A DNA stretch of 64,000 nt from an uncultured Myxococcales bacterium (GCA_964460115.1 CAYWPR010000010.1:55275-119274); one strand, 5' to 3'. Shown: positions 4,319-62,628, counted from the first letter of the stretch. Translations and numbers: made by a program. Notes: generated by a model from the letters alone, not told the origin.

Positions 4319-4327
4319 GCTCCCGTA

Positions 4328-39477: not shown

Positions 39478-42400
39478 ATGAACGTTTTAGCGCCGGAAAT
39501 GCTGATCGCCAAGCGATTCGCGATCGAGACTCTCGCCAACACCGGCGGCATGGGGGCAGTTTATAGAGCCAAAGATTTGCAATCGGGCGATCTGGTTGCG
39601 ATTAAGGTTCTGCATGTTTCCGTTGGAACCCTTGATGAGGCCGACCGCTTTGCGCGCGAAGTGCAGATTTTGGCCGAACTTCGCCACCCAGCCATCGTGT
39701 CCTACATCTCGCATGGCGTACTCGAAACCGGCCAGCCTTATATGGTGATGGAATGGCTGGCCGGCGAGGAACTGTCGCGGCGGCTCAGCCGTGGACCGCT
39801 GTCGCCGCGAGAAAGCCTGATGCTGATTCGCCGAATCACCCAGGCGCTGTCCGTGGCCCACCAGCGCCGCATCATTCACCGCGATATCAAACCGGCGAAT
39901 CTGATTTTGCGCAACGACGCGATTGAGCAAGTGACCCTGCTCGATTTTGGCGTCGCCCGTCGCACCACGCTGACCGAGTCGATGACTCGAACGGGATTTA
40001 TCATCGGCACGCCAGAGTACATGGCGCCGGAGCAAGCCCGCGGCCAACGCGAAATCACGCCCAGCGCCGATATCTTTTCTTTGGGCTGCGTCTTCTTTGA
40101 GTGTTTGACCGGCCAGCCTCCCTTTACGGCCGACCTGGCGGCAGGGGTCATGGCCAAAATTCTCTTTGAGCCGGCCCCACTGCTGCGCTCTTTGCGCCCC
40201 GATTTGCCAGAGTCGCTAGACTTGCTGCTCGCTGCCATGTTGGAAAAAGATCCAGCAGCGCGACCGCAAGACGCCAGTGAACTCTTGCAGGCCATGGCGT
40301 CTTTAGACGCCAACATCAGTGAGATATCGGTGCGCGCCAGCCAGGCGGTACGGCCTGTGCGTCAAGTCACTCCCGCCGAGCAACAACTGGTTAGCGTGCT
40401 TCTGGCCCATATTCCAAGTCTAGTTCCCGGTGGAGATTCCGAAACCACGGCCGTAGCGCCGGGCGACAGCGATGAAGCCAAAGCATTTGTGCGCGCGCTA
40501 AACGCCTTTGGCGCCAAGGTCGAGATTTTGGCCGACGGTTCGATCATCGCGACGGTGACCCAAGGGCGGCATATGACCGCCACCGATCAAGTGGCGCAAG
40601 CTGCCCGCTGCGCATTGGCGCTACGCCAACGCTTTCCGGATGCCATCAGCACACTGACCACCGGTCGCGGACTGCTTGGCGGGCAGCGACCTTTTGGCGA
40701 CGCCATTGAACGCTCGGCCCGTCTGCTGAAGCAAAGCTTAGGCAGCGAGCCCCCCCCCCTTGGCAATTCCGGCGAAGTGATCTTTTTGGATGAAGTCACC
40801 GCAGTCCTTCTCGACACGCGCTTTGAGACACGGCGCCTCGAAGGCGGAATCTTTGCACTCCGGGGAGAAAGGGTCAGCATCAACGCTGGACGGTCGCTGC
40901 TTGGTCGTCCGACTCCCTTTATCGGTCGCGACCGAGAACTTTCCGTCTTAGACCTTCTATATGCCGAGTGTCGAGACGACGCCACACCTCGCGTTGTTCT
41001 TGTAACGGCGGCGGCCGGGATGGGCAAATCGCGGCTGCGTTACGAGTTTTTGCATCGGCTGGCGGCCCGCCGTGAGCCCATGCAGCTTATGATGAGCCGC
41101 GGCGATCCGCTGACCACAGGCTCTCCGTATGCGCTGCTCGGGCAGGCAGTACGTTATCTGTGCAACATCAGCGAAGGGCAAAGTCCCTTCGTGCAACGCA
41201 GCAAGCTGGCCCAACATATACAAAGCCGGCTGCCGCAAAAAGACGCCAGCCGGGTCGAAGAATTTTTGGGCGAGCTGTGCGGAGTCCCGGCATTTGGCGA
41301 ACCAAGTGCAAAACTTCTGACCGCACGTCATGACGAACGCGTCATGACCGAACAATTGCATCACGCGCTCATTGAACTTTTGCGTGCGGAATGCGATCGT
41401 CATCCCCTGCTTTTGGTGCTGGAAGATCTGCATTGGGGAGACACGCCGACCGTGCGCCTGGTCGATGCCGCGCTGCGCGAACTTTCCGGCTGCAGCTTGA
41501 TGGTCCTAGCCCTGGCGCGACCGGAAATCGAATTGGTTTTTCCGCGGCTGTGGATTGAGCGCCGACGTCAGGATTTGCGACTGGAAGGTTTAAGCCGCAA
41601 AGCCAGCGAGCGGCTTGTGCACGCAGCGCTTGGTGACAACGTTTCCAAATCGGTCACCGCGCGCGTCATTGAGCAATCCGCCGGCAATGCTCTATTTTTG
41701 GAAGAACTGATTCGCGCCGTTGCCGAAGGCAAGGGCCATGAACTACCGGAAACCGTTCTGGCCATGTTGCAGTCGCGACTTTTGCGGTTGGAACCGCCGG
41801 CACGGCGGGTGCTACGTGGCGCCAGCATCTTAGGACAATCGTTTGCACGCAGCGCACTAGTGGCCGTGCTGCGTACCGAGCATGGCGTCATCGACCTAGA
41901 TCATTGGCTGCATATGCTCACCGATGCCGAAATCCTGGAGCTACAGCGGGAACCGGCGGAGTCTCAGGATCCGCAGTACCGTTTTCGCCATGCGCTGCTT
42001 CGCGATGCCGCCTACAGCCTGCTTACCTCCGACCATCAAAAATTAGGACATCGTCTAGCCGCGGCGTATCTTGAACAGCTTGATGATAGCGATCCGGTCG
42101 TCATGGCTGATCACTATGAACGCGGCGGGGATCTAGCACGGGCCAGCAGTCTGTACCTGCGCGCTGCCGAACTGGCCCACAGGCGCGGCGATGGCGACAC
42201 CGCGGTAGCATTGGGAAGACGCGGCCTGATTTGCGCCCCCGATGAAATCGTTCGAATCGGTCTGCTTGTCGTCCTGTGTCAGGTGTATCTGTGGCGCAAT
42301 CAGTGGGCCCTGGCGGCCGAGTTTGCCGAAGATCTATTGCAGCTTTCTTCTCCGGGAAGTCCGGCGTGGGCCATCGGCGCAACGGCGATGCTGGTTCACG

Positions 42401-51825: not shown

Positions 51826-52498
51826 ACCGAATTTCAAGCTTGGCATTTGCCGGCTTAGCTTCGTTGCCGCGGTTTGTCTGCTTATTTTGCCAAGCCGCTC
51901 GCAGGCGATTCAAACTCCTAGCTCCTCCTCCGTCGATTGTGAAAAAGACAGCCACTGTCGCGATCTTTTTGCCAAGGGACGAAAACTGCAAGCGGCCGGA
52001 GATTACGCCGGGGCCATCGCCAGTTTCGATGCCGCTTACGACAGCCATCCGGATCCGCGGCTGCTTGTCTTTAGCGCACGTTCGCGGCACAAAGCCGGCC
52101 GAGTTAGCGAGGCCTTAGAACTTTATCTGCGCGTACAGCCCAGCCTGCAAAATGCTGCGGAGCGCGCCAAGGTAGACAGCTTTATCGCCGAGGCCCACAG
52201 CGATTTGGCCCGCCAAAGCCCCGATTCCCCGCAGTCCGTATCGATTCCGCCATTGTCTGGCCCCCCGTCTGGCCCGCCGCCGCCCGGACTTTTGAGCCTG
52301 CCACCGCAAAGAGATACATCGGCGATGCGCTGGACGACGACGACCACCACCACGACCACTGGTTTTGGCAACGGCCGTCCGCTTTATAAACAGTGGTGGT
52401 TGTGGGTGGTCGTCGGCGGAGTGGCCACTGCGGGCATCGCCGCCATCATCGTCGCCGCCGCCACGGGTCAAGTGCAAACAACGGTAACCCGTCAATAA
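51794..52498 (+). CDS. Secreted TPR-like / Pro-Thr-rich protein with a C-terminal TM anchor.
   Basis: Signal peptide MKKFASQIWTRPNFKLGICRLSFVAAVCLLILPSRSQA, a poly-Thr tract (TTTTTTTTT) and a C-terminal helix WWLWVVVGGVATAGIAAIIVAAA. Confidence 0.5.
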   Translation: MKKFASQIWTRPNFKLGICRLSFVAAVCLLILPSRSQAIQTPSSSSVDCEKDSHCRDLFAKGRKLQAAGDYAGAIASFDAAYDSHPDPRLLVFSARSRHKAGRVSEALELYLRVQPSLQNAAERAKVDSFIAEAHSDLARQSPDSPQSVSIPPLSGPPSGPPPPGLLSLPPQRDTSAMRWTTTTTTTTTGFGNGRPLYKQWWLWVVVGGVATAGIAAIIVAAATGQVQTTVTRQ

Positions 52499-52507
52499 AC
52501 CGAAGCG

Positions 52508-53944
52508 TTAACGCCAGCCGCCGCCAAGCGCCTGATAAAGTCCGATGGCGGCATTCATTTGTCGTTTTTTGTTTTCGATGAGCTCCATTTGCGCTTCTAG
52601 CGCGTCGCGCCGAGTCATCAAAACTTCCATATAATCGGCGCGCGCCGAGGCGAAAAGCCGAGAAGAAATATCTATCGACTGCGTGAGCTTTTCGACCTGC
52701 TGGGTTTGCAGGTTGTAGCTATTTTCGAGGTTATTGATCATCGCCAATAGCTTGCTGACCTCGACGTAGCCATTCAAAATGGCGCGCTCAAAATGAAACA
52801 CGGCCTGCATCTGTTTCGAATTGGCCGTGAAATAAGATGCCGTGATTGCCTTGCGGTTGAAAAGGGGGGCCATCAGGTCGGCGCCAATGCCGTATACTAA
52901 GGACGCCGGCAAAGAGACCAATTTCAAAAAGTCGAATGATTCAAGTCCGATCTTGGCGCGAATTCCCAAAGACGGATAAAAGCCCGCCTTTGCCGAACGG
53001 AAGTCGAAGTCAGTTGCTAAAAGCTCAAGCTGCGCCTGTTTCACATCGGGACGGTTTTCAAGAAGCTGGGACGGAATGCCGGCGTGCACTATAGGCGGCA
53101 AAAGGTCGGCAAAGCGTTGCGCGCTGCGCTCTACACGTTGCGGAAATCGGCCGAGCAAAAAGTTGATGCGATTTTCGGTCTCGACGATTTGCTGCGCAAT
53201 GGTGTACTGACGGCTTTGATTCTTGAGCACTTCCGCCTCAAAGCGCTTGACCGCGAGCTCGGTCACCTTGGCGGCTTCTTTTTGCAGCTTGACGACAAAA
53301 AGCGCGCTTTTTTGTATCTCGATGTTCTGTTTTACGACTTCTAGCTGCGCATCGAGCGCCACCAGTTCATAATAGGAATTGGCGATTTCGCCGACGAGCC
53401 TGGTGACGGCGAAATTTCGCCCTTCCTGACTCGCCAGATAACGCAGGGTGGCCGCCTTTGTCGCATTGCGCAATTTCGAAAAGACGTCGACTTCCCAAGA
53501 TGCCGAAAAGCCGACCGCGAAATTCGGAAGATTCTGCGGAACTCCCGTGGCATCATCGCTGGCCCCCTGGCTGGTGTACTGCCCGACTTTGTCGATGCCA
53601 GCGCCCAGCCCAAACCCGACTTTCGGCAAGTATTCGCCTTTGCGGGCCATGATTTCGTTTTGAACGATGGCCATCTCAAGCGAGACGATGTTGAGCTCTT
53701 GATTGTTCTTCAGGGCGGTATCGATAAGAGCATTGAGATTGGGGTCGATAAAGAATTCGCGCCACTTCATTTGCGCAGAATTTGTCGCGTCCGCCCGCCC
53801 GGCGTAGTTTGACGGAACATTGGTATTTGCAGCCCTGGCCCTGCCCCCTGGCAGCGCAGGGAGACATGCCGCAGTCAGAAGCAGCCCCAAAATGCCCATG
53901 CTGGCTGCAAGCTTTGTCCTATCTCGAGTCCTATCCCTATCCAT
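52508..53944 (-). CDS. RND efflux system outer membrane factor (NodT/OprM family lipoprotein).
   Basis: Lipobox LLTAAC and two OEP repeats (for example NPLNALIDTALKNNQELNIV). It is the last gene of the MFP-RND-OMF operon and overlaps the RND stop. Confidence 0.85.
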   Translation of the reverse strand: MDRDRTRDRTKLAASMGILGLLLTAACLPALPGGRARAANTNVPSNYAGRADATNSAQMKWREFFIDPNLNALIDTALKNNQELNIVSLEMAIVQNEIMARKGEYLPKVGFGLGAGIDKVGQYTSQGASDDATGVPQNLPNFAVGFSASWEVDVFSKLRNATKAATLRYLASQEGRNFAVTRLVGEIANSYYELVALDAQLEVVKQNIEIQKSALFVVKLQKEAAKVTELAVKRFEAEVLKNQSRQYTIAQQIVETENRINFLLGRFPQRVERSAQRFADLLPPIVHAGIPSQLLENRPDVKQAQLELLATDFDFRSAKAGFYPSLGIRAKIGLESFDFLKLVSLPASLVYGIGADLMAPLFNRKAITASYFTANSKQMQAVFHFERAILNGYVEVSKLLAMINNLENSYNLQTQQVEKLTQSIDISSRLFASARADYMEVLMTRRDALEAQMELIENKKRQMNAAIGLYQALGGGWR

Positions 53945-56900
53945 GATGGGCCACCTCTTCGGTAAGCGGAAGCTCATCTTCGTCTCTGATGAGGGCTCTG
54001 CCTTCGGCAATCTTGCCAAACACGTAGTAAAGACCCGGCACGACAATGACTCCGAAGATCGTGCCAAAGAGCATACCGCCAAGCGCCGAGGCCCCGATTG
54101 TGCGATTTCCGATGGCTCCCGGCCCGGTGGCGACTACCAAGGGAATCAGCCCGGCGACAAAGGCAAATGAGGTCATCAGAATCGGCCGAAAGCGCACTTT
54201 GGCGCCTTCGATTGCCGCCTGAGCGACAGACAAGCCTTCGGCGTGCTTTTGCACGGCAAACTCGACGATAAGCACGGCATTTTTGCCCAGCAGACCAACG
54301 AGCATGACCAAGCTCACCTGTGCATAGATGTCATTGGCCAGTCCTAAGAGTTTCAGCATTTCAAACGCACCGAAAACACCCGCGGGCAAAGACAAAAGCA
54401 CGGACAAGGGAATGATAAAGCTTTCGTACTGCGCCGCCAGCACCATGTAGACAAATAGGAGCACGACCATAAAGATGTACAGTGCCTCATTTCCGCGTCT
54501 GGCTTCGTCGAAGGACAATCCCTCCCAGGCGATGTCATAGCCGCGCGGCAAAGTCTTGGCCGCCACTTCGCGAACCACGCGAATTGCGTCGCTGCTGGTG
54601 TATCCCTCGGCCGGACCGCCACGAATGGCCGAGGAATTGTAAAGGTTATAGCGCGTGATCTCGTTTGGTCCCTGCGTCTTTTTAAGCTTCATGAAGGCCG
54701 AATAGGGCACCATTTCATCGCGATCGTTTTTTACGTAAAGCTGCAGGATATCGGAAGGCAGCCGCCTATATTCAGGAGCGGCCTGGGTGTACACCTTAAA
54801 GAACTGCCCAAAGCGGATAAAGCCCTGCTCGTAAGTACTGCCAATGAGAATGTCGAGGTTGTCGAGGGCCTTGCCTATCGAAACGCCCTTTTGCATGGCC
54901 AGCTCGTTGTCAATCACCAGCTCGTACTGCGGATAGTTCGCGGCAAAGAACGTAAACAGTCCGGTCAGTTCTTTGCGCTTGCGCAGCTCGTCCATAAAGT
55001 TCTGATTCACTTTGTCGAATGCTTGATAATCGGTAGAGTTGGTCTTATCGAGGAGACGCAACGCAAAACCACCCGCAGCGCCGTATCCCGGAACCGCAGG
55101 CGGCTCAAAGAATTCGACCACGGCGCCGATGTCTTTGGTTTTCTGCTCAAGCTCTTCGATAAGCTCACTCACCGATTTCTTTCTTTCGGACCAGCCCTTC
55201 AAATTGATAAGACAGGTTCCGGCGTTCGAACCGCGGCCTTCGGTCAGCATCTCATAGCCAGCCAGAGACGATACGGACTGCACTCCTTCGACATCCTTGA
55301 CCAGTTCCTGGACTCGGCGGGCGACATCATTTGTCTGCTCAAGCGTCGATCCCGGAGGCGTCTGAATGATCGCGTAGATCATTCCTTGATCCTCATTGGG
55401 TACGAAGCCCGAAGGCAGACGAGCGCTGACGAAAAAGATGCCCGCCGCAAAGGCAAAAAGCATCAAGAATGTGATAAGGCGCCGGGTGACAATCAGCCGC
55501 AAAAGCCCTTCATATTTTCCGGCGATACGCTCAAAGACGCGATTGAACAAATCGATGAAAACGCCAATTGGCGTGCGCCGCTTAGGCTGGCCGTGATGGC
55601 TCTTTAGAATCATCGCGCACAGCACCGGCGTCAGCGTCAGCGCCACAACGCCCGAGATGATAATCGACGTTGCCATCGTCACGGCAAATTGCCGATAAAA
55701 GATTCCGACCGGCCCAGTCATAAAGGCCACCGGAACAAAGACCGCGGTCATCATCAGCGTAATGGCGATGATGGCGCCGCTGATCTCGCCAAGCACCTGA
55801 GTCACTGCGCGGTACGGAGATACGTGCTTTTCGGCCATTTTGGCGTGCACGGCCTCGACAACGACGATGGCGTTGTCCACGACGATGCCGATGGCCAGCA
55901 CCAGCGCAAAAAGCGTGATCAGGTTGATGGTCATTCCGAACATCTGTAAGACGATGAAAGTACCGACCAAAGACACGGGAACAGCAAGCGTAGGAATCAG
56001 CGTAGAGCGCCAATCTCCAAGAAAGATGAAGACGACAAGGGCCACAAGCACAAAGGCCTCAATCAGTGTGTGCACAACTTTCTCGATCGAGGCGTCCAAA
56101 AAGTTCGAGACGTCGTAGCTGATTTCATAATTCATGCCCGGAGGAAACGAAGCTTTTAGCGCCTCCATCTTTTCTTTGACGTCGGCGATGACGTCATTGG
56201 CGTTGCTGCCGAAGTTCTGTTTCAGCATGATGGCCGCTGACGGATGGCCATTTAGATTTGTGTAGATGTCGAAGAACTCACTGCCAAGTTCGACTTCCGC
56301 AACGTCCTTTAAGCGCAGAATCTCGCCTTGCGATTTGGCGCGAATGACGATGTCGCCATACTGCTCGGGTTTGTTGAATTGCCCGACATAGATCAGCACG
56401 TATTCGAGCGCCTGCGAATGCTTGCCCGAGCTTTGACCGGTACGGCCGGGACGCCCGATGACGCTTTGCTCAGCGACGGCTTTCATCACCTCTTCGGTCG
56501 AGATGTTGTAGGCACGCATGCGGTCCGGTTTCAGCCAAATGCGCATGGCGTATTGGCGGCTGCCGAGGATTTGCGCGCGTCCGACGCCGCCGATGCGCTT
56601 GATCTCGGGCAAAAGGTTCACGTTCGCGAAGTTGTAAATGAATTTTTCGTCGGTGGTGGGGTCCGTGCTGTACAAGTTGACAAACATCAGCATGCTGGAC
56701 TGCACGGGCGAGACGACCACACCCTCGCGCTGGACCAGCGGTGGCAAAAGGTTCATCACTTGATCGACGGCATTTTTGACGTTGACCACGGCGCGATTCG
56801 GATCGGAACCGAGGTTGAAGATGACCTGTATCGTCGCTTCTCCGGCGCTTGTTGCATCGGAAACGATATAGGACATGCCCTGCACGCCGTTTATGGCTTT

Positions 56901-57098
56901 TTCCAAAGGAATCAGCGTCGATTTGATCAAAACGTCGGCGCTGGCTCCCGGATACGCAATCATCACCATGACCCGCGGCGGTGAAATCTCGGGAAACTGC
57001 GAGACGGGCAAAGTGCGCATCGCCAAAAGTCCCAGAAACAAAAGAACCAGCGACGTGACGATGGCCAGAACCGGCCTATGAATGAATCGTGCGAACAT
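53937..57098 (-). CDS. RND multidrug efflux permease (AcrB/HAE1 family).
   Basis: 1053 aa and 12 TM helices with two large periplasmic loops. The N-terminus MFARFIHRPVLAIVTSLVLLFLGLLAM is typical of AcrB. Confidence 0.95.
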   Translation of the reverse strand: MFARFIHRPVLAIVTSLVLLFLGLLAMRTLPVSQFPEISPPRVMVMIAYPGASADVLIKSTLIPLEKAINGVQGMSYIVSDATSAGEATIQVIFNLGSDPNRAVVNVKNAVDQVMNLLPPLVQREGVVVSPVQSSMLMFVNLYSTDPTTDEKFIYNFANVNLLPEIKRIGGVGRAQILGSRQYAMRIWLKPDRMRAYNISTEEVMKAVAEQSVIGRPGRTGQSSGKHSQALEYVLIYVGQFNKPEQYGDIVIRAKSQGEILRLKDVAEVELGSEFFDIYTNLNGHPSAAIMLKQNFGSNANDVIADVKEKMEALKASFPPGMNYEISYDVSNFLDASIEKVVHTLIEAFVLVALVVFIFLGDWRSTLIPTLAVPVSLVGTFIVLQMFGMTINLITLFALVLAIGIVVDNAIVVVEAVHAKMAEKHVSPYRAVTQVLGEISGAIIAITLMMTAVFVPVAFMTGPVGIFYRQFAVTMATSIIISGVVALTLTPVLCAMILKSHHGQPKRRTPIGVFIDLFNRVFERIAGKYEGLLRLIVTRRLITFLMLFAFAAGIFFVSARLPSGFVPNEDQGMIYAIIQTPPGSTLEQTNDVARRVQELVKDVEGVQSVSSLAGYEMLTEGRGSNAGTCLINLKGWSERKKSVSELIEELEQKTKDIGAVVEFFEPPAVPGYGAAGGFALRLLDKTNSTDYQAFDKVNQNFMDELRKRKELTGLFTFFAANYPQYELVIDNELAMQKGVSIGKALDNLDILIGSTYEQGFIRFGQFFKVYTQAAPEYRRLPSDILQLYVKNDRDEMVPYSAFMKLKKTQGPNEITRYNLYNSSAIRGGPAEGYTSSDAIRVVREVAAKTLPRGYDIAWEGLSFDEARRGNEALYIFMVVLLFVYMVLAAQYESFIIPLSVLLSLPAGVFGAFEMLKLLGLANDIYAQVSLVMLVGLLGKNAVLIVEFAVQKHAEGLSVAQAAIEGAKVRFRPILMTSFAFVAGLIPLVVATGPGAIGNRTIGASALGGMLFGTIFGVIVVPGLYYVFGKIAEGRALIRDEDELPLTEEVAHHG

Positions 57099-57137
57099 AG
57101 TCTCGCCTTTTTCGCGGATGTGGCAGATGAAATCGAA

Positions 57138-58238
57138 TCAGCCCGCCGGCACTTCCAAGTGTGAAATGACATCCTTAGGCTCCAAGAATTTCGTCGAGAT
57201 CTTGTCGCCGTCCTTCACCTTGCGAAGTCCTTCCAGAAGCACCTTGTCACTTTCGGACAGGCCCTTTTCCACGACATAAACCTGCGGCAGTTCATTGGCC
57301 GTCGAGATCTGCCGTGCGTGCACCACGCCTTCTTTGTCGACAGCAAACACGTATTTTTTGTCCAGGATGTCAAAGGTCGCCTTTTGCGGAACTAGCAAGG
57401 CGTTCTTCAGCGGTGTGGTCATCAGAACTTTGCCGGTTTCTCCGTGACGCAAAAGCCCATCGGGATTTGCAAACGTCGCGCGAAAGGCAATGGTGCCAGT
57501 TTCGTTGTTGAAATCCGCCTCGATGGTTTCCACTTTGCCGATGCTCGCAAAAAGCTTTCCATTGGCCATCAAAAGCTTCACAAGCGCCGCATCCCCCCCT
57601 TTGGCTCGAGACTTGTAATCAAGGTATTCCGCCTCGTTCACGTTGAAGTACACCCACATCTTGCTGTTGTCCGATAGCGTGGTCAAAAGCTCGCCATCTT
57701 CGACCAGACTGCCCCGCCGCACATGCAGACGGTCCATGATTCCGTCAAAAGGAGCTCTGATATCGGTAAAGCCAAGGTGTACTTTCGCCAGCTCTAGCTC
57801 GGCATTGGCTTTGTCGAGCTTGGCCTTGCTTAGGGCCAGCTCACTTGCAGAAACGACGTGGCCCGCGGTTAGTTTTTTGGTGTTTTGGTATTCAATCTGC
57901 GCGACCGCAGCCTCGGCCTGCGCTTTGTGCAGCTCGGCCATATACAGCTTCGGCAGAATCTGAAACATCTGCTGGCCTTTTTTGACGGCTTGCCCCTCAT
58001 CGACATAAATATTTTCCAGGTAGCCGTTTTCCAGCGCGCGCAGCTCGATGTGCTGAATCGCGCGAATTTGCGCCACGTATTCCATTGTCACTTCCGTGTC
58101 CATGCGGATCGGACTTGTCGCTTGAAATACGGCACCTTCTTCGTGCGTCTGCGCTTTGGCACCGCAACCCGCGTAAGTCTGCGCGCAAAGCAAAGCGCCG
58201 AGCATGCATACAAAGGAATTGCGCCAATTCCGGTACAT
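57138..58238 (-). CDS. RND efflux periplasmic adaptor (membrane fusion protein).
   Basis: Lipoprotein signal (FVCMLGALLCAQTYAGC), alpha-hairpin coiled coil, lipoyl and beta-barrel domains. An alternative longer start is at 58349. Confidence 0.85.
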   Translation of the reverse strand: MYRNWRNSFVCMLGALLCAQTYAGCGAKAQTHEEGAVFQATSPIRMDTEVTMEYVAQIRAIQHIELRALENGYLENIYVDEGQAVKKGQQMFQILPKLYMAELHKAQAEAAVAQIEYQNTKKLTAGHVVSASELALSKAKLDKANAELELAKVHLGFTDIRAPFDGIMDRLHVRRGSLVEDGELLTTLSDNSKMWVYFNVNEAEYLDYKSRAKGGDAALVKLLMANGKLFASIGKVETIEADFNNETGTIAFRATFANPDGLLRHGETGKVLMTTPLKNALLVPQKATFDILDKKYVFAVDKEGVVHARQISTANELPQVYVVEKGLSESDKVLLEGLRKVKDGDKISTKFLEPKDVISHLEVPAG

Positions 58239-58398
58239 AATTCGTTGCGAGGTCCCTTCTTGAAGACCAAGGTACGGACAACAAAGGAAGACTTTGAAGA
58301 GAGCCGAAAAGTAGGGCTTCATGAGGGCGACCTGAATGAGCTTGTTCATCGGACAAAGGCCCGGCGACGAACTTGCTCGCGCCGATGACAATGTGCAT

Positions 58399-58414
58399 TG
58401 CAGGGATTGTGCCA
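58399..58414 (-). promoter_or_regulatory. Sigma-54 promoter TGGCAC-AATCC-CTGCA (minus strand) upstream of the RND efflux operon.
   Basis: The reverse complement of 58399-58414 is TGGCACAATCCCTGCA, with GG/GC at the canonical spacing. It sits between the NtrC-type regulator gene and the MFP gene. Confidence 0.65.
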
Positions 58415-58454
58415 GGACGCGCGTCGAAGAAGATTTCATCAGGGTCTGCCCGGG

Positions 58455-58496
58455 CTGCGGAAAATCTCCCCAGGTTCCTGGGAAGATCTTCCGCAG
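58455..58496. promoter_or_regulatory. 42-bp imperfect palindrome (19/21 arm matches), a candidate enhancer (UAS) 40-95 bp upstream of the sigma-54 promoter.
   Basis: ctgcggaaaatctccccaggt / tcctgggaagatcttccgcag. It shares the AATCTCCCCA half-site with the palindrome at 61532-61568. Confidence 0.55.
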
Positions 58497-58532
58497 GGCG
58501 CGAGCCTTTGCGCTACAAGGTCGCAGCCGTGA

Positions 58533-59891
58533 TTACATGCGACCATAGCGCTGCAGCCGCGCCTGCAGCGTCTTGCGGTCCACGCCAAGAATGCGCGCCG
58601 CTTCGCTTTTGTTTCCGCCTACTGCATCAAGAATTGCCAGCACGTGGCGGCGCTCGACCTCGGCCAAAGGAAGGAATTCACCAGGCGCATCCGCAGTGGC
58701 AGATGTCTCGGAGGCTCCCTCGCGCAAAAGGCTCGGCAAGTCCTCGCGAGTGACCAAATGGCTGCGCGCCATGGTCACGGCGCCTTCAATGGTATTGCGC
58801 AGTTCACGCACATTGCCGGGCCAGTCGTAGCGCAAAAGATAATGCGCCACGTCGGGCGCGAATGCGTCAAGCGGCTTGCCATCGCGCTTGGCGAACTCTT
58901 GCAGGAAGCGATGCGCCAAAAGCAGGATGTCATCGCGGCGCTCGCGCAGCGGCGGCACATGAATAGAGATGACGTTTAGACGAAAAAATAGGTCGGCGCG
59001 AAAGTCGCCGCTGCGCACCGTCTGCTGCAGATTGCGGTGTGTGGCAGCCACCACTCGCACGTCGAAATTCACCTCGTGATCGCTACCGACGGGGCGTACC
59101 AGCTTCTCCTGCAATGCGCGCAAAAGCTTGGGTTGCAAAGCCAGCGACATGTCGCCGATTTCATCCAGAAAAAGCGTTCCTCCGTGCGCGCGGCGCAAAA
59201 GGCCGACGCGCGCCGCACGGGCCCCGGTAAAAGCCCCCCGCTCATGGCCAAAGAGCTCGCTTTCCAAAAGGTGGTCGGGCATCGCCGCGCAATTGATTGC
59301 GACAAAAGGTCCGCGGCTGCGCTTGCTAAGGCTGTGAATGGCGCGCGCGACGAGCTCTTTGCCGCTTCCGCTTTCGCCGGTTACTAGCACGGAAGCATCC
59401 GAGCTGCTAATTCGCTCTACAACGTCGGCAAGGCGGCGTATCTCTGGAGACACGCCGAGGATTCCCGCAAAGCCGGTTCCCGTCTCGGCGGTATGCCGCA
59501 GCCGTTCGACTTCGCGCTGGCGTTCGCTTTGCTCGGCCGCCCGTTTGAGTACGATTTCCAAAGCGTCGGTCTCAAACGGCTTGGTCAGAAAATCGTGCGC
59601 CCCGGCACGCAGCGCAGCAATCGCCGCGTCCATATCGCCAAACGCCGTCATGAGCACGACCGGCAAGTCGGGACACGCTGACGCCAGCGCCCTACACACA
59701 TCAAGTCCCGACGGACCGGGCATGCGCACATCGAGCAGGGCGACGTCAAAGGGCTCGCCGTTTTTCGCCAGCGCCAGCGCTTCATCGCCATTGCGCGCAA
59801 TCGCTACGTCGTAGCCGCGATCCGCAAGTTCGGCCTGCAGGAAGCGCAATAAATCTACGTCGTCATCCACGAGCAGTGCGCGAATTCTCAC
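58533..59891 (-). CDS. Sigma-54-dependent response regulator (NtrC family: REC + AAA+ + Fis-type HTH).
   Basis: REC (LLVDDDVDLL...DVALLDVRMPG), a sigma-54 interaction domain (GESGSGKE, GAFTGA) and a C-terminal HTH. The GTG start at 59889-59891 overlaps the HK stop as GTGA. The ORF-track ATG at 59942 would overlap the HK by 55 nt. Confidence 0.9.
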   Translation of the reverse strand: MRIRALLVDDDVDLLRFLQAELADRGYDVAIARNGDEALALAKNGEPFDVALLDVRMPGPSGLDVCRALASACPDLPVVLMTAFGDMDAAIAALRAGAHDFLTKPFETDALEIVLKRAAEQSERQREVERLRHTAETGTGFAGILGVSPEIRRLADVVERISSSDASVLVTGESGSGKELVARAIHSLSKRSRGPFVAINCAAMPDHLLESELFGHERGAFTGARAARVGLLRRAHGGTLFLDEIGDMSLALQPKLLRALQEKLVRPVGSDHEVNFDVRVVAATHRNLQQTVRSGDFRADLFFRLNVISIHVPPLRERRDDILLLAHRFLQEFAKRDGKPLDAFAPDVAHYLLRYDWPGNVRELRNTIEGAVTMARSHLVTREDLPSLLREGASETSATADAPGEFLPLAEVERRHVLAILDAVGGNKSEAARILGVDRKTLQARLQRYGRM

Positions 59892-61381
59892 ACTCCCTCC
59901 GATTTGAAATAAAGGCGCATCGTCGTCCCGTGCTCGCCGCACGGCAAAGGCTCGGCGGAGGTATGGCTGTCAAGCTCGATAAACCCCCCATGCTCTTGCA
60001 CGATCTCGTGCGTAATCGCCAGACCGAGCCCCGTGCCCTCGCTGACCGACTTCGTTGTGAAGAAGGGATCGAAAATTTGGGCGCGAATTTCCGGAGCGAT
60101 GCCGCTGCCGTTGTCGCAGACTTCCAGAACCGCCCAGCGCGTCTTTTTGGCTTCCGCGTTTTTTTCGCTGCGCGTTTCTTCTCGCACGGCAACGCGCACA
60201 AGACCATCCGCGCCGACTGCCTGCAGCGCGTTCAATGTAATGTTGGTCAACGCCTGCTCGACAAGGCCGACATGGGCGATACAACGCACATCGGTGCTGC
60301 TGGCGACTAGCTCTAGCTTCGCATTCTTCTTGCGGGCCACCGATTCCAGCCACGCCGTCACCCGCCCCGCAACATCGCCCAGGACTACAGAGCTCGGCAA
60401 GCCGCTCGGCTTGCGCGCAAAGGTCAGTAGCTGCTCGACAATGATGCGCATGCGTTCGCATTGGTTGCGAATGCTTTCGGCTTCAAAGCGAATCTCCTCG
60501 GATACGTTCGCGGACGCCGCAATGCGATTGGCCCGTCCCGAAACGATATGCAGCGGCGTTCCAAGTTCATGGGCGATTCCCGCGGCAAGCGTCCCGACCG
60601 TCGCCAACCTGTCGTTATGGCGCATGCGTTCGACGACCGCGACCCGTGCCGCCGCTTCGCTCTCGACCCGAGTCTGAAATTCTCCCAGTTGCTGCACCAT
60701 CGCATCAAGCTCCATGCTCAGCAGCGTGAGCTCAGCGCTTGATTCATTGCCGGCGCGAAAGCGGACTGCAAAGTCGCCTTTACCGACCAGGCGCGCCTTG
60801 GCGACAATGCGATTCAGCGGAGCCGAAATGAGCCGCGCCCCCAAAATGACCGCAACCGCAAGGCCGACCAGTACTGTAAGGCCGGTTTGCTGAATGAACG
60901 CCCGCATGTTTTCGCGAACCGAACTCGCTTCGCCATATAGTTCGCGGCTCATCGCGACGCCAAAGGGGACTCCGGCCTCCTTGCCGACCGAAAGCTGATC
61001 GAAAGCGACCAGCACCGGAGGGCTCGCGCGGTGGTCAATGAAGATGACCTGATGCCCCTCTTGCGCTTGCTGGCGCAGATCCAGCGGCAGACGCGCAAAA
61101 AGCTCATTTTGCGCCAGCGCATCCAAACGCACGAGGTGAAATGAGCAGTTGTCTTGACGGTCGGCTACGCGGTCAAGATAGCTTTGCAGTCCGCTTGTCC
61201 CCCTGCTACGCCACGCCAGGCTCGCCCCTTCGTCCAGCGCCGTCAGAAGCGCTTGAAGCTGCTGCGTGCGAATTTCCTCATAGCGCGCCTCGAACCGCCC
61301 CCGCTGTTCCCAGGTAATCGCCAAAATCGCCAGAATGAAAGTTCCGACAATCAGAAGCGTAAGACGGAGTGCGAGTCGCAT
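59888..61381 (-). CDS. Sensor histidine kinase (two TM helices, HAMP, HisKA, HATPase_c).
   Basis: The N-terminal TM MRLALRLTLLIVGTFILAILAI, a periplasmic loop, a second TM, H-box GIAHELGTPL, and N, G1 and G2 boxes (DNGSGI, GLGLAI). Confidence 0.9.
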   Translation of the reverse strand: MRLALRLTLLIVGTFILAILAITWEQRGRFEARYEEIRTQQLQALLTALDEGASLAWRSRGTSGLQSYLDRVADRQDNCSFHLVRLDALAQNELFARLPLDLRQQAQEGHQVIFIDHRASPPVLVAFDQLSVGKEAGVPFGVAMSRELYGEASSVRENMRAFIQQTGLTVLVGLAVAVILGARLISAPLNRIVAKARLVGKGDFAVRFRAGNESSAELTLLSMELDAMVQQLGEFQTRVESEAAARVAVVERMRHNDRLATVGTLAAGIAHELGTPLHIVSGRANRIAASANVSEEIRFEAESIRNQCERMRIIVEQLLTFARKPSGLPSSVVLGDVAGRVTAWLESVARKKNAKLELVASSTDVRCIAHVGLVEQALTNITLNALQAVGADGLVRVAVREETRSEKNAEAKKTRWAVLEVCDNGSGIAPEIRAQIFDPFFTTKSVSEGTGLGLAITHEIVQEHGGFIELDSHTSAEPLPCGEHGTTMRLYFKSEGV

Positions 61382-61474
61382 TGACGGTCATCCTCGATCC
61401 CGCAGGAGTTTGGCAAAAAGGAGCGCAGCCACGTAGCTCGGCAAGTCTTAAACTCCGCTGCACAGCATGTCATA

Positions 61475-61490
61475 TGCAAATGCTGCGCCA
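61475..61490 (-). promoter_or_regulatory. Sigma-54 promoter TGGCGC-AGCAT-TTGCA (minus strand), about 80 nt upstream of the HK start.
   Basis: The reverse complement of 61475-61490 is TGGCGCAGCATTTGCA, with GG/GC at the canonical spacing and a perfect -12 TTGCA. Confidence 0.6.
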
Positions 61491-61531
61491 TGGTTTTAAC
61501 TCTCCGTTTCGAAATAAATTGGGCGGCTTTC

Positions 61532-61568
61532 TGAGTAAGATCTCCCCATGTTGGGGAAATCTTACTCA
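61532..61568. promoter_or_regulatory. 37-bp palindrome / hairpin (17-bp arms, 1 mismatch), a candidate enhancer 45-90 bp upstream of the HK sigma-54 promoter.
   Basis: tgagtaagatctcccca-tgt-tggggaaatcttactca. It is related to the 58455-58496 palindrome. Confidence 0.55.
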
Positions 61569-62238
61569 AGTCGCGGACGCGCAGGACCGATAAATGCGCC
61601 CACTCAAATCAGGCAAGCAGCGCTGTGCAGAAATTCGGCAAGCAGCGCGACAGGAAGTTCGTCCTTTAGTACGACTTGGTCACTTTGCGGATGTCTCGAG
61701 GACGAATCCAGCCGGAGCAGATGGCGAGCGCGCCCGGAGTGACCGACCGAGCCGTAGCCGTAGCTACGGCGACCGAGGGAACGAGGACGTAAGCCGCCAG
61801 ATGCCCGGCTGGTTCGGCGGCAGTAATCCGCAAAGTGACCAAGTCGTACTAGGCGCAGTTACTTCTGCGACGGCCGAATTCGAGGGGCACAGCGCGAAGG
61901 CCAGGGCAAGCGACGTTCGTACTCACACTGCGGCATTCGAAACAAATGTTGGCAAGCGACCGTATCATCGAATGGCGAAAGGCTTTGGCTGCAAGTCGTC
62001 AGATAAATTTCTTCGCGACTCCAATCGTTTGTGTCGATTTCAATGATGGCTCGTTGCGAAAACCGGTCTTCGCCGCCTCGACCAAGGCAAACGCTGGACA
62101 CTTTTTCAGAAGCGTCCTCCGCGTTCGCCTTGCTCATACATTTATTCAGAAAGGGTCGTTTGCCATCGCAGATGGCCATTTGTTACAACTCCTAGACAAG
62201 GCATTTTAGTCCGTTTTGGTATCGAGCGGACAAGCGTT

Positions 62239-62628
62239 TTAGGGGTTTTTCGCAGCCGCGTTTTCCACCGTGATCTCGATAAACGCCGTGCTTTTTCCGA
62301 GCAGTTTGCCGAAAAAACGTCCGGCGCGACGCAAAAGGCCATACTTAGCGTTTAGCGCCGCATCGCTGCGCGCCGATTCGGACTCATCGACAAGGAGCGC
62401 TTGGCCTTCATACCAAGGTCCAAGGATTTGGCTGCCGCTGGCATTGCAAATCGCGACCCGAACGCGAGGATTTTGGCGAATGCGTTTGACTTTGTGGCTG
62501 CTCGGAGAAGTGGCCATCACCAGTTTGCCATCAAGCGGCGCGGCCCACATTGGTGTACGAACACCGCTGCCGTCTTTGCGAAACGTCTCTAAACTGACGT
62601 ACTTGCCGTGATCTAAAGGAGTGCCCAT
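62239..62628 (-). CDS. PPOX-class (pyridoxamine-5'-phosphate-oxidase-like) F420/FMN-binding split-barrel protein.
   Basis: YVSLETFRKDGSGVRTPMWAAPLDGKLVMATSPSSHKVKRIRQNPRVRVAICN fits the PPOX class F420-dependent (Rv1155-like) family pattern. Confidence 0.7.
   Translation of the reverse strand: MGTPLDHGKYVSLETFRKDGSGVRTPMWAAPLDGKLVMATSPSSHKVKRIRQNPRVRVAICNASGSQILGPWYEGQALLVDESESARSDAALNAKYGLLRRAGRFFGKLLGKSTAFIEITVENAAAKNP

What the first reader, a model, noticed from the sequence alone, without database searches (positions are those of the whole stretch)
58399..61568. Two sigma-54 promoters, each preceded by a related AATCTCCCCA-type palindrome, link an HK/NtrC pair to the adjacent RND efflux operon
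Directly visible in the sequence.
- Promoters: two sequences match the RpoN -24/-12 consensus at exact GG-N10-GC spacing. TGGCACAATCCCTGCA is the reverse complement of 58399-58414, upstream of the MFP-RND-OMF operon. TGGCGCAGCATTTGCA is the reverse complement of 61475-61490, upstream of the HK-RR operon.
- Palindromes: each promoter has a long palindrome 40-95 bp further upstream. These are 58455-58496 (ctgcggaaaatctccccaggt|tcctgggaagatcttccgcag, 19/21) and 61532-61568 (tgagtaagatctcccca tgt tggggaaatcttactca, 16/17).
- Shared half-site: the two palindromes share the half-site A(A/G)ATCTCCCCA / TGGGGA(A/G)ATCT, but the half-site spacing differs by 3 nt.

The encoded regulator is a sigma-54 EBP (GAFTGA present). 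Its gene overlaps the HK stop as GTGA.

This is the architecture expected for an autoregulated NtrC-type two-component system that also activates an efflux pump through enhancer-bound ATPase looping. The palindromes would be the enhancer sites.

Sigma-54/EBP control of an RND pump with a deducible operator motif is uncommon and directly testable.
Basis: partly seen in the sequence, partly recalled or inferred. Interest (0 to 1): 0.65.

Follow-up and report, generated by a model that had tools for sequence, protein, structure and literature searches.

The report
Sigma-54 two-component switch controlling efflux pump
A myxobacterial sensor kinase and its sigma-54 activator partner most likely switch on both their own operon and the neighbouring multidrug-type efflux pump through conserved 19-bp binding sites; the feature is real and well conserved, but its mechanism is conventional.

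Summary

**Interpretation: supported by comparative genomics, with one refinement.**
- Each "palindrome" is really two adjacent 19-bp operators of the form CTGGGGAG-N3-CTCCSCAG.
- A matrix built only from orthologous loci ranks the four window operators as the top four hits in 64 kb.
- In Polyangia relatives the operators and the TGGC-N8-TGC elements are conserved islands: about 0.5-0.8 pairwise identity against about 0.25-0.28 for the surrounding intergenic DNA.
- The centre of the promoter-proximal operator lies 48.5-52.5 bp from the -24 GG in 14 of 16 promoters. One further promoter has it one helical turn further out.
- The kinase/regulator pair and the orthologous pump stay linked through three gene orders, with operators beside the pump operon and the kinase operon in each.

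**Precedent exists.** The operator equals the experimentally defined Myxococcus xanthus Nla28 site at its own sigma-54 promoter (GTGGGGAG-N3-CTCCGCAG). Reported Nla28 target loci include genes annotated as CusA/CusB cation-efflux proteins and an RND-family efflux transporter.

**Verdict.** This is a new member of a known kind. It is solid and testable, but mechanistically conventional. Nothing was tested experimentally. Orthology to Nla28 could not be tested.

The parts
59888..61381 (-). Sensor histidine kinase. Predicted TM1 is about residues 5-24, followed by a ~140-aa periplasmic domain of unknown fold, TM2 at about residues 166-186, then HAMP, HisKA and HATPase_c.
   Evidence: ORF and translation. 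Pfam HAMP, HisKA and HATPase_c. The sensor region has no confident Pfam match. Orthologues are 63-82% identical and come only from Polyangia-type genomes. The TM segments are read from the sequence.
58533..59891 (-). NtrC-family sigma-54 enhancer-binding response regulator: REC, AAA+ domain with GAFTGA, and Fis-type HTH. Its GTG start overlaps the kinase stop as GTGA.
   Evidence: Sigma54_activat 7e-70, Response_reg 4e-27, HTH_8 2.5e-12. Below every NCBIfam equivalog cut-off. The orthogroup is 75-88% identical, then identity drops to 59% or less.
61475..61490 (-). Predicted sigma-54 promoter of the kinase-regulator operon, TGGCGCAGCATTTGCA. GG is at 61489-61488 and GC at 61477-61476. The transcription start is expected near 61464.
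   Evidence: Aligned TGGC-N8-TGC is invariant in 10 orthologous sequences. The start position is inferred from the usual -12 geometry.
61531..61549 (.). Promoter-proximal 19-bp operator unit of the kinase enhancer (operon strand ATGGGGAGATCTTACTCAG). Its centre is 51.5 bp from the -24 GG, about -76.
   Evidence: 18.6 bits with the orthologue-only matrix. Distance. Conservation.
61551..61569 (.). Promoter-distal 19-bp operator unit of the kinase enhancer (operon strand TTGAGTAAGATTTCCCCAA). Its centre is 20 bp from the proximal unit, about -96.
   Evidence: 16.3 bits. Spacing.
58399..58414 (-). Predicted sigma-54 promoter of the pump operon, TGGCACAATCCCTGCA. GG is at 58413-58412 and GC at 58401-58400. 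The transcription start is expected near 58388.
   Evidence: Conserved in the orthologues (pairwise identity 0.76 against 0.28 background).
58455..58473 (.). Promoter-proximal 19-bp operator unit of the pump enhancer (operon strand CTGGGGAGATTTTCCGCAG). Its centre is 51.5 bp from the -24 GG, about -76.
   Evidence: 27.5 bits, the best hit in the window. Distance. Same pattern as the Nla28 site GTGGGGAG-N3-CTCCGCAG (PMC9765219).
58478..58496 (.). Promoter-distal 19-bp operator unit of the pump enhancer (operon strand CTGCGGAAGATCTTCCCAG). Its centre is 23 bp from the proximal unit, about -99.
   Evidence: 22.1 bits. Spacing.
58424..58434 (-). Conserved block ATCTTCTTCGA (TCTnCTTCG) 11 nt upstream of the -24 GG of the pump promoter. 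Its role is unknown.
   Evidence: Invariant columns. Pairwise identity 0.74 against 0.28 background.
58239..58388 (-). Predicted ~150-nt 5' leader of the pump operon, much longer than in most orthologues.
   Evidence: The fusion-protein start was set at ATG 58238 by alignment of lipoprotein signal peptides. Leader lengths. No Rfam family.
57138..58238 (-). RND membrane fusion (periplasmic adaptor) lipoprotein.
   Evidence: Pfam HlyD_D23. NCBIfam TIGR01730, 220 bits against a cut-off of 94.9.
53937..57098 (-). RND permease of the HAE1 (hydrophobe/amphiphile, multidrug) type.
   Evidence: Pfam ACR_tran 1e-293. TIGR00915 scores 1027 against a cut-off of 940. The CusA/CzcA model scores 329 against 701, so it is not met.
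52508..53944 (-). Outer membrane factor lipoprotein (NodT family). Its start overlaps the permease stop by 8 nt.
   Evidence: Pfam OEP. TIGR01845 scores 222 against 210. The start was chosen by analogy with the 8-nt overlap in the orthologues.

Best explanation
The locus is a self-contained sigma-54 regulatory module in a Polyangia-type myxobacterium.

**Proposed mechanism**
1. A membrane histidine kinase with a ~140-residue periplasmic sensor of unknown specificity phosphorylates an NtrC-family enhancer-binding response regulator.
2. Regulator dimers bind 19-bp inverted-repeat operators, CTGGGGAG-N3-CTCCSCAG.
3. Two operators lie side by side about 76 and 96-99 bp upstream of each of two sigma-54 promoters.
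4. From there the assembled AAA+ ring contacts promoter-bound sigma-54 holoenzyme over a short, phase-constrained loop. It uses ATP hydrolysis and its GAFTGA loops to open the promoter.
5. One promoter drives the kinase-regulator operon, giving positive autoregulation. The other drives the adjacent fusion protein / HAE1 permease / outer-membrane-factor pump operon.

**What is shown**
- The protein domains.
- The sequence elements, their statistical specificity, their conservation and their fixed geometry.
- Their persistence through gene rearrangements.

**What is inferred**
- That this regulator, and not another, binds the operators.
- That the promoters are used and depend on rpoN.
- That phosphorylation activates the regulator.
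- The signal, which is probably an amphiphilic toxic compound or envelope stress, given the HAE1 pump.
For: - **Domains.** One search gives the Pfam domains.
- **Operator specificity.** A matrix built from orthologous loci only ranks the four window units first to fourth in 64 kb. Simulated sequence gives 0.07 such hits per window.
- **Reverse test.** A matrix built from the window's four units puts units I had assigned by eye first in L001-L005, L062 and L072 (17.0-23.6 bits), filling the top three or four places in L001-L003. It finds nothing above 9.9 bits in the paralogous loci L073-L075.
- **Footprints.** At the pump promoter the enhancer, a middle block and the sigma-54 16-mer have pairwise identity 0.79, 0.74 and 0.76. 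At the kinase promoter the enhancer and the 16-mer have 0.50 and 0.71. The rest of the intergenic DNA has 0.25-0.28.
- **Geometry.** The proximal-unit centre to -24 GG distance is exactly 51.5 bp in 8 of 16 promoters and 48.5-52.5 bp in 14. One promoter has 61.5 bp, which is +10.
- **Linkage.** The orthologous pump (permease 74-87% identical) stays with the kinase/regulator pair in three gene orders, with operators beside both operons in each. The orders are downstream and co-directional (window, L001-3, L062 and related), upstream and co-directional (L072), and divergent with a shared enhancer (L005 and L004 Minicystis rosea).
- **No alternative promoter.** No sigma-70-like promoter is found in 52000-62500.
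- **Experimental precedent for the operator.** The Nla28 DNA-binding domain needs both halves of GTGGGGAG-N3-CTCCGCAG at its own sigma-54 promoter (PMC9765219).
Against: - There is no experimental evidence for this locus or organism.
- The sigma-54 matches alone are not statistically significant.
- Both promoters depart from the consensus. The pump -12 element is CTGC rather than TTGC, and the kinase -24 element is TGGCGC.
- The enhancers are closer to the promoter (-76 to -99) than the classical NtrC sites.
- In Minicystis rosea the kinase gene lacks a good sigma-54 promoter at the expected distance. Autoregulation is therefore not universal in the group.
- In the window's gene order, read-through from the kinase-regulator operon could also feed the pump operon.
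- rpoN itself was not looked for, because the genome outside the window is not available here.
Confidence: 0.78

Rival explanations
1. The palindromes act mainly as RNA hairpins. They would serve as a 3'-end stabiliser or terminator for the kinase-regulator transcript, or as a leader structure, and not as protein-binding enhancers.
For: - Both fold strongly if transcribed: -43.5 and -32.7 kcal/mol, z-scores -5.7 and -7.3.
- The first lies 37 nt after the regulator stop codon.
Against: - Neither has a U tract, and the terminator scan did not call either.
- The second palindrome lies upstream of the predicted promoter, more than 650 bp from the preceding gene.
- In L005 and L004 the units sit in a divergent promoter region, and the second unit has a degenerate outer half. 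There is no long hairpin there, yet the motif is kept.
- What is conserved is sequence and a fixed distance to the -24 element, not just pairing.
Confidence: 0.07
2. The elements are real enhancers and sigma-54 promoters, but a different enhancer-binding protein binds them. That would be cross-regulation, and the adjacent regulator would have other targets.
For: - Myxobacteria encode dozens of such activators; 53 are reported for M. xanthus (PMC11287280).
- M. xanthus activators regulate one another's genes (PMC9765219).
- No binding data exist for this locus.
Against: - The motif tracks this kinase/regulator orthogroup through three rearrangements and sits in front of the regulator's own operon.
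- It is absent from the nearest paralogous systems.
- Cognate autoregulation is the usual pattern and is reported for Nla28, which has the same operator (PMC9765219).
Confidence: 0.1
3. The sigma-54 promoter in front of the pump is minor or vestigial. The pump would be expressed mainly by read-through from the kinase-regulator operon or from an unrecognised promoter.
For: - In the window's gene order the genes are co-directional, with only a 294-bp gap and no canonical terminator.
- The -12 element is CTGC rather than TTGC.
Against: - The pump keeps its own operator pair and -24/-12 element when it lies upstream of, or divergent from, the kinase-regulator pair. Read-through is impossible in those orders.
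- The 16-mer is conserved at 0.76 against 0.28 background.
Confidence: 0.05

Closest known systems
Nla28S/Nla28 (MXAN_1166/MXAN_1167) of Myxococcus xanthus
   Same: - A membrane-bound histidine kinase and an NtrC-type activator in a two-gene operon.
- The operon is autoregulated from a sigma-54 promoter.
- The operator at its own promoter is GTGGGGAG-N3-CTCCGCAG. Both halves are needed for binding in EMSA, and the consensus half-site is CT(C/G)CG(C/G)AG.
- This is the same 8-N3-8 unit found here, for example CTGGGGAG-ATT-CTCCGCAG in L001 and L003 and CTGGGGAG-ATT-TTCCGCAG in the window.
- Reported targets include MXAN989 (annotated CusA and CusB cation-efflux proteins) and MXAN7147 (annotated RND-family efflux transporter plus an ABC-type efflux protein) (PMC9765219, PMC3892784).
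   Different: - Nla28 is described as an early starvation and development regulator with many dispersed, often intragenic, targets and loosely matching sites.
- Here the system is physically tied to one HAE1 pump, with two tight operator pairs at a fixed distance.
- Orthology is untested. No Myxococcus protein appears among the best 120 hits for either the regulator or the kinase. The orthogroup seems confined to Polyangia-type genomes.
DcaR / Nla13 (MXAN_3811) with kinase MXAN_3812, Myxococcus xanthus
   Same: - A kinase-activator operon.
- A gain-of-function allele raises efflux pumps, lipases and outer-membrane proteins and gives broad detergent resistance.
- Autoregulation was proposed (PMC11287280).
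- Functionally this is the closest analogue of a sigma-54 two-component system that governs HAE1-type efflux.
   Different: - No operator, promoter or direct target has been defined for DcaR.
- Whether a pump is adjacent could not be checked.
- The sequence relationship to the window regulator is untested.
NtrB/NtrC at glnAp2, the textbook enhancer-binding two-component system
   Same: - Phosphorylation-driven oligomerisation on two adjacent dimer sites upstream of a -24/-12 promoter.
- DNA looping and GAFTGA-dependent open-complex formation.
- Domain order REC, AAA+, Fis-type HTH. The mechanism itself is from established knowledge.
   Different: - A different operator sequence.
- Sites at about -76 and -96 to -99 rather than about -108 and -140.
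- A different signal and regulon.
- The regulator is below the NCBIfam NtrC cut-offs (421 against 558.6).
ZraS/ZraR (HydH/HydG), the name given by RAST and JGI to members of this orthogroup
   Same: - A periplasm-sensing kinase with an NtrC-type regulator.
- An envelope-stress theme.
- Good alignment to the ZraR AAA+ and DNA-binding structure 1OJL.
   Different: - Both proteins fall far below the equivalog cut-offs: ZraR 426 against 760 and ZraS 132 against 479.
- The adjacent co-regulated genes are an RND pump operon; no zraP-like gene was identified among them.
- The source annotation is therefore generic, not a family assignment.

Membership tests
NtrC-family (group I) bacterial enhancer-binding response regulators | N-terminal receiver domain | tested here: met
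   Pfam Response_reg 4.3e-27, residues 6-112. The LLDVRMPG acceptor context is visible in the translation.
NtrC-family (group I) bacterial enhancer-binding response regulators | AAA+ sigma-54 interaction domain with the GAFTGA loop | tested here: met
   Pfam Sigma54_activat 7e-70. ERGAFTGA is in the translation.
NtrC-family (group I) bacterial enhancer-binding response regulators | C-terminal Fis-type helix-turn-helix | tested here: met
   Pfam HTH_8 2.5e-12, residues 409-449.
NtrC-family (group I) bacterial enhancer-binding response regulators | Target promoters of the -24 GG / -12 GC type with upstream activator sites | tested here: met
   Met in sequence only. Two conserved TGGC-N8-TGC elements have operator pairs at a fixed 51.5 bp.
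NtrC-family (group I) bacterial enhancer-binding response regulators | ATP- and sigma-54-dependent activation in vivo or in vitro | not testable with these tools
   Needs transcription assays or an rpoN depletion.
Nla28S/Nla28 system of Myxococcus xanthus | Two-gene kinase-activator operon with a membrane-bound kinase | tested here: met
   GTGA-coupled genes. Two hydrophobic segments flank a ~140-aa region ahead of HAMP. Nla28S is described as membrane-bound (PMC9765219).
Nla28S/Nla28 system of Myxococcus xanthus | Operator of two 8-bp half-sites CT(C/G)CG(C/G)AG separated by 3 bp at its own sigma-54 promoter | tested here: met
   The unit consensus from the orthologue-only set is CTGGGGAGATTCTCCCCAG. 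The published site is GTGGGGAG-N3-CTCCGCAG.
Nla28S/Nla28 system of Myxococcus xanthus | Orthology of regulator and kinase to MXAN_1167 and MXAN_1166 | tested here: inconclusive
   No M. xanthus sequence could be obtained. No Myxococcus protein is among the top 120 hits for either protein. The best named Cystobacterineae hit (Archangium, 53%) has no operator or sigma-54 promoter.
Nla28S/Nla28 system of Myxococcus xanthus | Role in the starvation or developmental response | not testable with these tools
   Needs genetics in the source organism.
ZraS/ZraR | Score at or above the NCBIfam equivalog cut-offs | tested here: not met
   ZraR 426 bits against a cut-off of 760. ZraS 132 against 479.
AtoS/AtoC | Score at or above the NCBIfam equivalog cut-offs | tested here: not met
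   AtoC 459 against 714. AtoS 163 against 646.
HAE1-type tripartite RND efflux pump | Permease matches the HAE1 model above its cut-off | tested here: met
   TIGR00915 scores 1027 against 940. ACR_tran 1e-293.
HAE1-type tripartite RND efflux pump | Cognate periplasmic adaptor and outer membrane factor in the same operon | tested here: met
   TIGR01730 scores 220 against 94.9. TIGR01845 scores 222 against 210. The genes are contiguous or overlapping.
Heavy-metal (CusA/CzcA) RND pump | Permease matches the CusA/CzcA model above its cut-off | tested here: not met
   TIGR00914 scores 329 against 701.

The most novel reading that the evidence does not exclude
The Polyangia module and M. xanthus Nla28S/Nla28 would share a DNA-binding specificity by descent. 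If so, the early starvation and development regulator Nla28 derives from, or still partly is, an envelope or xenobiotic-stress system whose original job was to switch on an adjacent multidrug-type RND pump from a tightly off sigma-54 promoter. The fixed 51.5-bp geometry, and the 23-bp versus 20-bp operator spacing at the two promoters, would then set different activation thresholds for the pump and for the regulator.
Probability: 0.25. Interest if true: 0.55.

Novelty: new member of a known kind. Interest (0 to 1): 0.4.

Why it matters
**A complete, testable regulatory map from sequence alone.**
- It gives operator, promoter, spacing and regulon for an uncharacterised two-component system in a poorly studied myxobacterial class.
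- It ties a sigma-54 activator to a dedicated HAE1 efflux pump.
- In the papers searched here, regulation of RND pumps appeared mostly via non-sigma-54 regulators such as MexT and CzcRS, plus the M. xanthus cases described below. A sigma-54 circuit has very low basal expression and a strict dependence on the activator, so it is a different control logic.

**It sharpens the Nla28 binding-site model.**
- The conserved unit is an 8-N3-8 inverted repeat with constant internal spacing.
- The looser tandem-repeat description used for genome scans fits less well.

**It suggests an evolutionary link.** Efflux or stress control may be connected to a developmental regulator.

**Limit.** The mechanism is textbook, so the value is incremental.

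Tried and rejected
- **Chance.** The bare -24/-12 patterns are not significant alone. I therefore did not rely on them. The operators, the conservation and the spacing carry the argument.
- **Longer fusion-protein ORF.** The ORF starting at 58439 would swallow the promoter. I rejected it because the orthologues' lipoprotein signal peptides align with MYRNWRNSF..., which starts at 58238.
I replaced it with two 19-bp units.
- **Terminator or riboswitch reading.** There is no U tract, no terminator call and no meaningful Rfam hit. The only hits are sub-threshold miRNA models at E about 0.5.
- **ZraSR or AtoSC identity and a heavy-metal pump.** All are below the curated cut-offs.
- **Orthology to Nla28.**
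  - A search with the 49-aa DNA-binding domain returned only short fragments.
  - The kinase search returned no Myxococcus protein.
  - The Archangium homologue and the 59% paralogue lack the motif.
  - Sarwar & Garza 2012 and Giglio 2011 are not held.
- **Sensor domain.** No confident Pfam family; the weak CusS and HK_sensor hits have E about 0.1.
- **Shared leader element.** The long leaders of the window and of M. rosea are not homologous.
- **Other hits in the window.**
  - Operator-like 18502-18520 overlaps the 5' end of an ORF on the minus strand.
  - Sigma-54-like 41798-41813 lies inside a 1313-aa ORF.
  - Both are probably chance.
- **Further precedents.** Literature searches for RpoN-dependent RND regulation found nothing specific beyond the M. 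xanthus papers.

Full report
**1. What is in the sequence**

All five genes lie on the minus strand.
- The kinase (59888-61381) has HAMP, HisKA and HATPase_c domains. These follow two hydrophobic segments that flank a ~140-residue region with no confident family match.
- The regulator (58533-59891) has Response_reg, Sigma54_activat, AAA_lid_14 and HTH_8 domains and contains ERGAFTGA. Its GTG start overlaps the kinase TGA stop as GTGA.
- Downstream come a periplasmic adaptor lipoprotein (57138-58238), an RND permease (53937-57098) and a NodT-type outer membrane factor (52508-53944).
- NCBIfam places the permease in the HAE1 multidrug group (1027 bits against a cut-off of 940). It does not fit the CusA/CzcA metal group (329 against 701).
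- The regulator and the kinase fall below every named equivalog cut-off, including ZraR/ZraS and AtoC/AtoS. The "zinc system" and "HydG" labels attached by some sources to members of this orthogroup are therefore generic.

**2. The observation**

- Both -24/-12 sequences and both palindromes are at the stated coordinates.
- The promoter matches alone are not statistically compelling.
  - The loose pattern gives 15 hits against 8.9 expected.
  - Scores as good as these occur about 0.9 times per simulated window.
  - Even so, they are the only two matches to TGGCRC-N5-YTGCA. They are also the top two hits of a matrix built from orthologous promoters only.
- The palindromes are far from chance.

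**3. Relatives**

- The regulator belongs to a tight orthogroup of 75-88% identity. Identity then drops sharply to 59% or less. The kinase shows 63-82% identity and then 41% or less.
- Members with a named source come from Polyangia or Polyangiaceae metagenome-assembled genomes and from Minicystis rosea.
- I collected loci from the genome and metagenome scans and by exact look-up.
- Three gene orders occur.
  - Kinase, regulator, then pump, all co-directional: the window, L001-L003, L062 and its close relatives.
  - Pump, then kinase and regulator, all co-directional: L072.
  - Pump divergent from kinase and regulator: L005 and L004, which is M. rosea.
- The pump proteins are orthologous throughout. 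The permease is 74-87% identical, the adaptor 60-76% and the outer membrane factor 57-70%.
- The nearest paralogous systems have no pump, no motif and no sigma-54 promoter upstream. These are L073 from Archangium, L074 and L075.

**4. Footprints**

I aligned non-redundant intergenic regions and measured pairwise identity.

| Region | Pump promoter | Kinase promoter |
|---|---|---|
| Enhancer (two units) | 0.79 | 0.50 |
| Sigma-54 16-mer | 0.76 | 0.71 |
| Middle block | 0.74 | not measured |
| Rest of the intergenic DNA | 0.28 | 0.25 |

The background values are those expected of unrelated sequence.

**5. The operator**

- Comparing all sites shows that each "palindrome" is two copies of a 19-bp inverted repeat. 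The consensus is CTGGGGAG-ATT-CTCCCCAG, that is 8-N3-8, and the internal spacing is constant.
- In L005 one unit is a perfect 19-bp palindrome, CTGGGGAGAATCTCCCCAG. The second unit has a degenerate outer half (GTGTCCAGAATCTCCCCAG). There is therefore no 40-bp dyad there.
- A symmetrised matrix built from 19 units in the orthologous loci, excluding the window, scores four window positions highest.
  - 58455-58473: 27.5 bits.
  - 58478-58496: 22.1 bits.
  - 61531-61549: 18.6 bits.
  - 61551-61569: 16.3 bits.
  - The next hit scores 13.6 bits.
  - In 100 first-order Markov simulations, only 0.07 hits per window reach 16.3 bits.
- The reverse test used a matrix from the window's four units. It puts units I had assigned by eye first in L001-L005, L062 and L072, at 17.0-23.6 bits, and they fill the top three or four places in L001-L003. 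It finds nothing above 9.9 bits in the paralogous loci.

**6. Geometry**

- The centre of the promoter-proximal unit lies exactly 51.5 bp from the centre of the -24 GG at both window promoters and at six of the orthologous promoters, eight in all.
- The range is 48.5-52.5 bp in 14 of 16 promoters.
- The rearranged L072 pump promoter has 61.5 bp, which is one helical turn more.
- The exception is the M. rosea kinase gene. Its only candidate promoter has AG in place of GG and lies 330 bp away.
- Unit-to-unit spacing is 22-24 bp at pump promoters and 19-20 bp at the dedicated kinase promoters; the shared enhancers of the divergent loci have 23 bp.
- With transcription starts expected about 12 nt after the -12 GC, the units are centred near -76 and -96 to -99.
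- In L005 two sigma-54 promoters on opposite strands share one operator pair. They are TGGCACGGCGGGTGCT towards the pump and TGGCATGACGATTGCG towards the kinase.

**7. Mechanism**

- The most economical reading is the standard enhancer-binding mechanism. This part rests on established knowledge of NtrC-family activators.
- The kinase phosphorylates the receiver domain.
- Regulator dimers on the two operators nucleate the AAA+ ring.
- The ring reaches promoter-bound sigma-54 holoenzyme over a short loop whose helical phase matters.
- It then remodels the closed complex through the GAFTGA loops.
- One promoter gives positive autoregulation. The other gives pump induction.
- No sigma-70-type promoter was detected anywhere in 52000-62500.
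- The signal is unknown. Given an HAE1 pump, amphiphilic toxic compounds or envelope stress are the natural candidates. This is inference only.

**8. Rival readings**

- **RNA hairpins.** Both palindromes would fold strongly if transcribed, and the first lies in the regulator's 3' UTR. A secondary role in transcript 3'-end stability cannot be excluded. Against a primary RNA role:
  - there is no U tract, no terminator call and no Rfam family;
  - the second palindrome lies upstream of its promoter;
  - the motif survives in divergent promoter regions without a long hairpin.
- **Binding by another activator.** This is possible in principle but is disfavoured by the motif's strict association with this orthogroup.
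- **Read-through as the main source of pump transcripts.** This is excluded in the two other gene orders, where the pump still keeps its own operator pair and promoter.

**9. Comparison with known systems**

- **Nla28S/Nla28 of M. xanthus** is the closest described system (PMC9765219, PMC3892784).
  - It has a membrane-bound kinase and an NtrC-type activator in a two-gene operon that is autoregulated from a sigma-54 promoter.
  - The site at that promoter is GTGGGGAG-N3-CTCCGCAG. [quoted passage not shown] The derived consensus half-site is CT(C/G)CG(C/G)AG.
  - This is the unit found here.
  - The same paper lists MXAN989 (annotated CusA and CusB) and MXAN7147 (annotated RND-family efflux transporter) among Nla28-dependent sigma-54 targets.
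- **DcaR/Nla13** is a second M. xanthus activator. A gain-of-function allele raises efflux pumps and confers broad detergent resistance (PMC11287280).
- Sigma-54 control of efflux in myxobacteria is therefore not unprecedented.
- What is new here:
  - a dedicated, physically linked HAE1 pump as the target;
  - a cleanly resolved operator architecture with fixed geometry;
  - conservation across rearrangements.
- Whether the window regulator is the Polyangia orthologue of Nla28 could not be tested. I could not obtain M. xanthus sequences, and no Myxococcus protein appears among the top 120 hits for either protein.

**10. Verdict**

- It is a new member of a known kind: real, well supported in silico and directly testable, but mechanistically conventional.
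- Interest is 0.4.
- The most novel reading still open is that this pump-linked module and Nla28 share ancestry, so that a developmental regulator grew out of an efflux or stress circuit. I give that about 0.25 probability.

Noticed in passing
window 58424-58434 (minus strand ATCTTCTTCGA): A conserved block TCTnCTTCG lies exactly 11 nt upstream of the -24 GG of the pump promoter in the window, L001, L002, L003 and L062. Its pairwise identity is 0.74 against 0.28 background. It does not match the IHF consensus as I recall it. A looser YTCG occurs 18-23 nt upstream of GG at the kinase promoters.
   Followed up: partly
window 58239-58388: The predicted pump leader is about 150 nt, against 22-47 nt in most orthologues. 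It is open in frame with the adaptor gene back to ATG 58439. M. rosea also has a ~150-nt leader, but the two are not homologous. There is no Rfam match.
   Followed up: partly
window 61623-61641: A weak third operator-like unit, CTGTGCAGAAATTCGGCAA (11.4 bits), lies about 92 bp upstream of the kinase-proximal unit.
   Followed up: no
L072 11395-11413: An extra operator-like unit, ATGCGGAGGATCTCCCCAC (16.7 bits), lies 36 nt after the regulator stop and 20 nt before an additional 317-aa HisKA/HATPase gene. No promoter fits in that space. It may be a relic of the kinase-regulator-pump gene order.
   Followed up: no
L004 (Minicystis rosea CP016211) 4040-4420: The shared enhancer and the pump-side promoter (TGGCATGTCCCGTGCT) are present. 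The kinase side has no good -24/-12 element at the expected distance. The best candidate, TAGCACGACGCTTGCG, has AG for GG and lies 330 bp from the enhancer.
   Followed up: partly
window 18502-18520 and 41798-41813: The operator-like GTAGGAAGAATCTACGCAT (13.6 bits) overlaps the 5' end of an ORF on the minus strand. The sigma-54-like CGGCACGGCGGGTGCT (14.6 bits) lies inside a 1313-aa ORF. Both are probably chance.
   Followed up: partly
L074 and L075: A sister two-component system (regulator 59% identical in L074, kinase 40-41% in both) sits in a conserved neighbourhood of glucosamine-6-phosphate isomerase-like, Polysacc_synt and GST genes. It has no pump, and in L074 no operator or sigma-54 promoter was seen upstream of the kinase. 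Both loci score at most 9.9 bits in the operator scan.
   Followed up: partly
L062, L064, L066, L068-L070: One clade of close relatives shares a wider neighbourhood. It runs ABC-F ATPase, a Globin-Fer2-guanylate cyclase fusion protein, DUF4246, then the kinase-regulator-pump module, then a PAP2 phosphatase.
   Followed up: no
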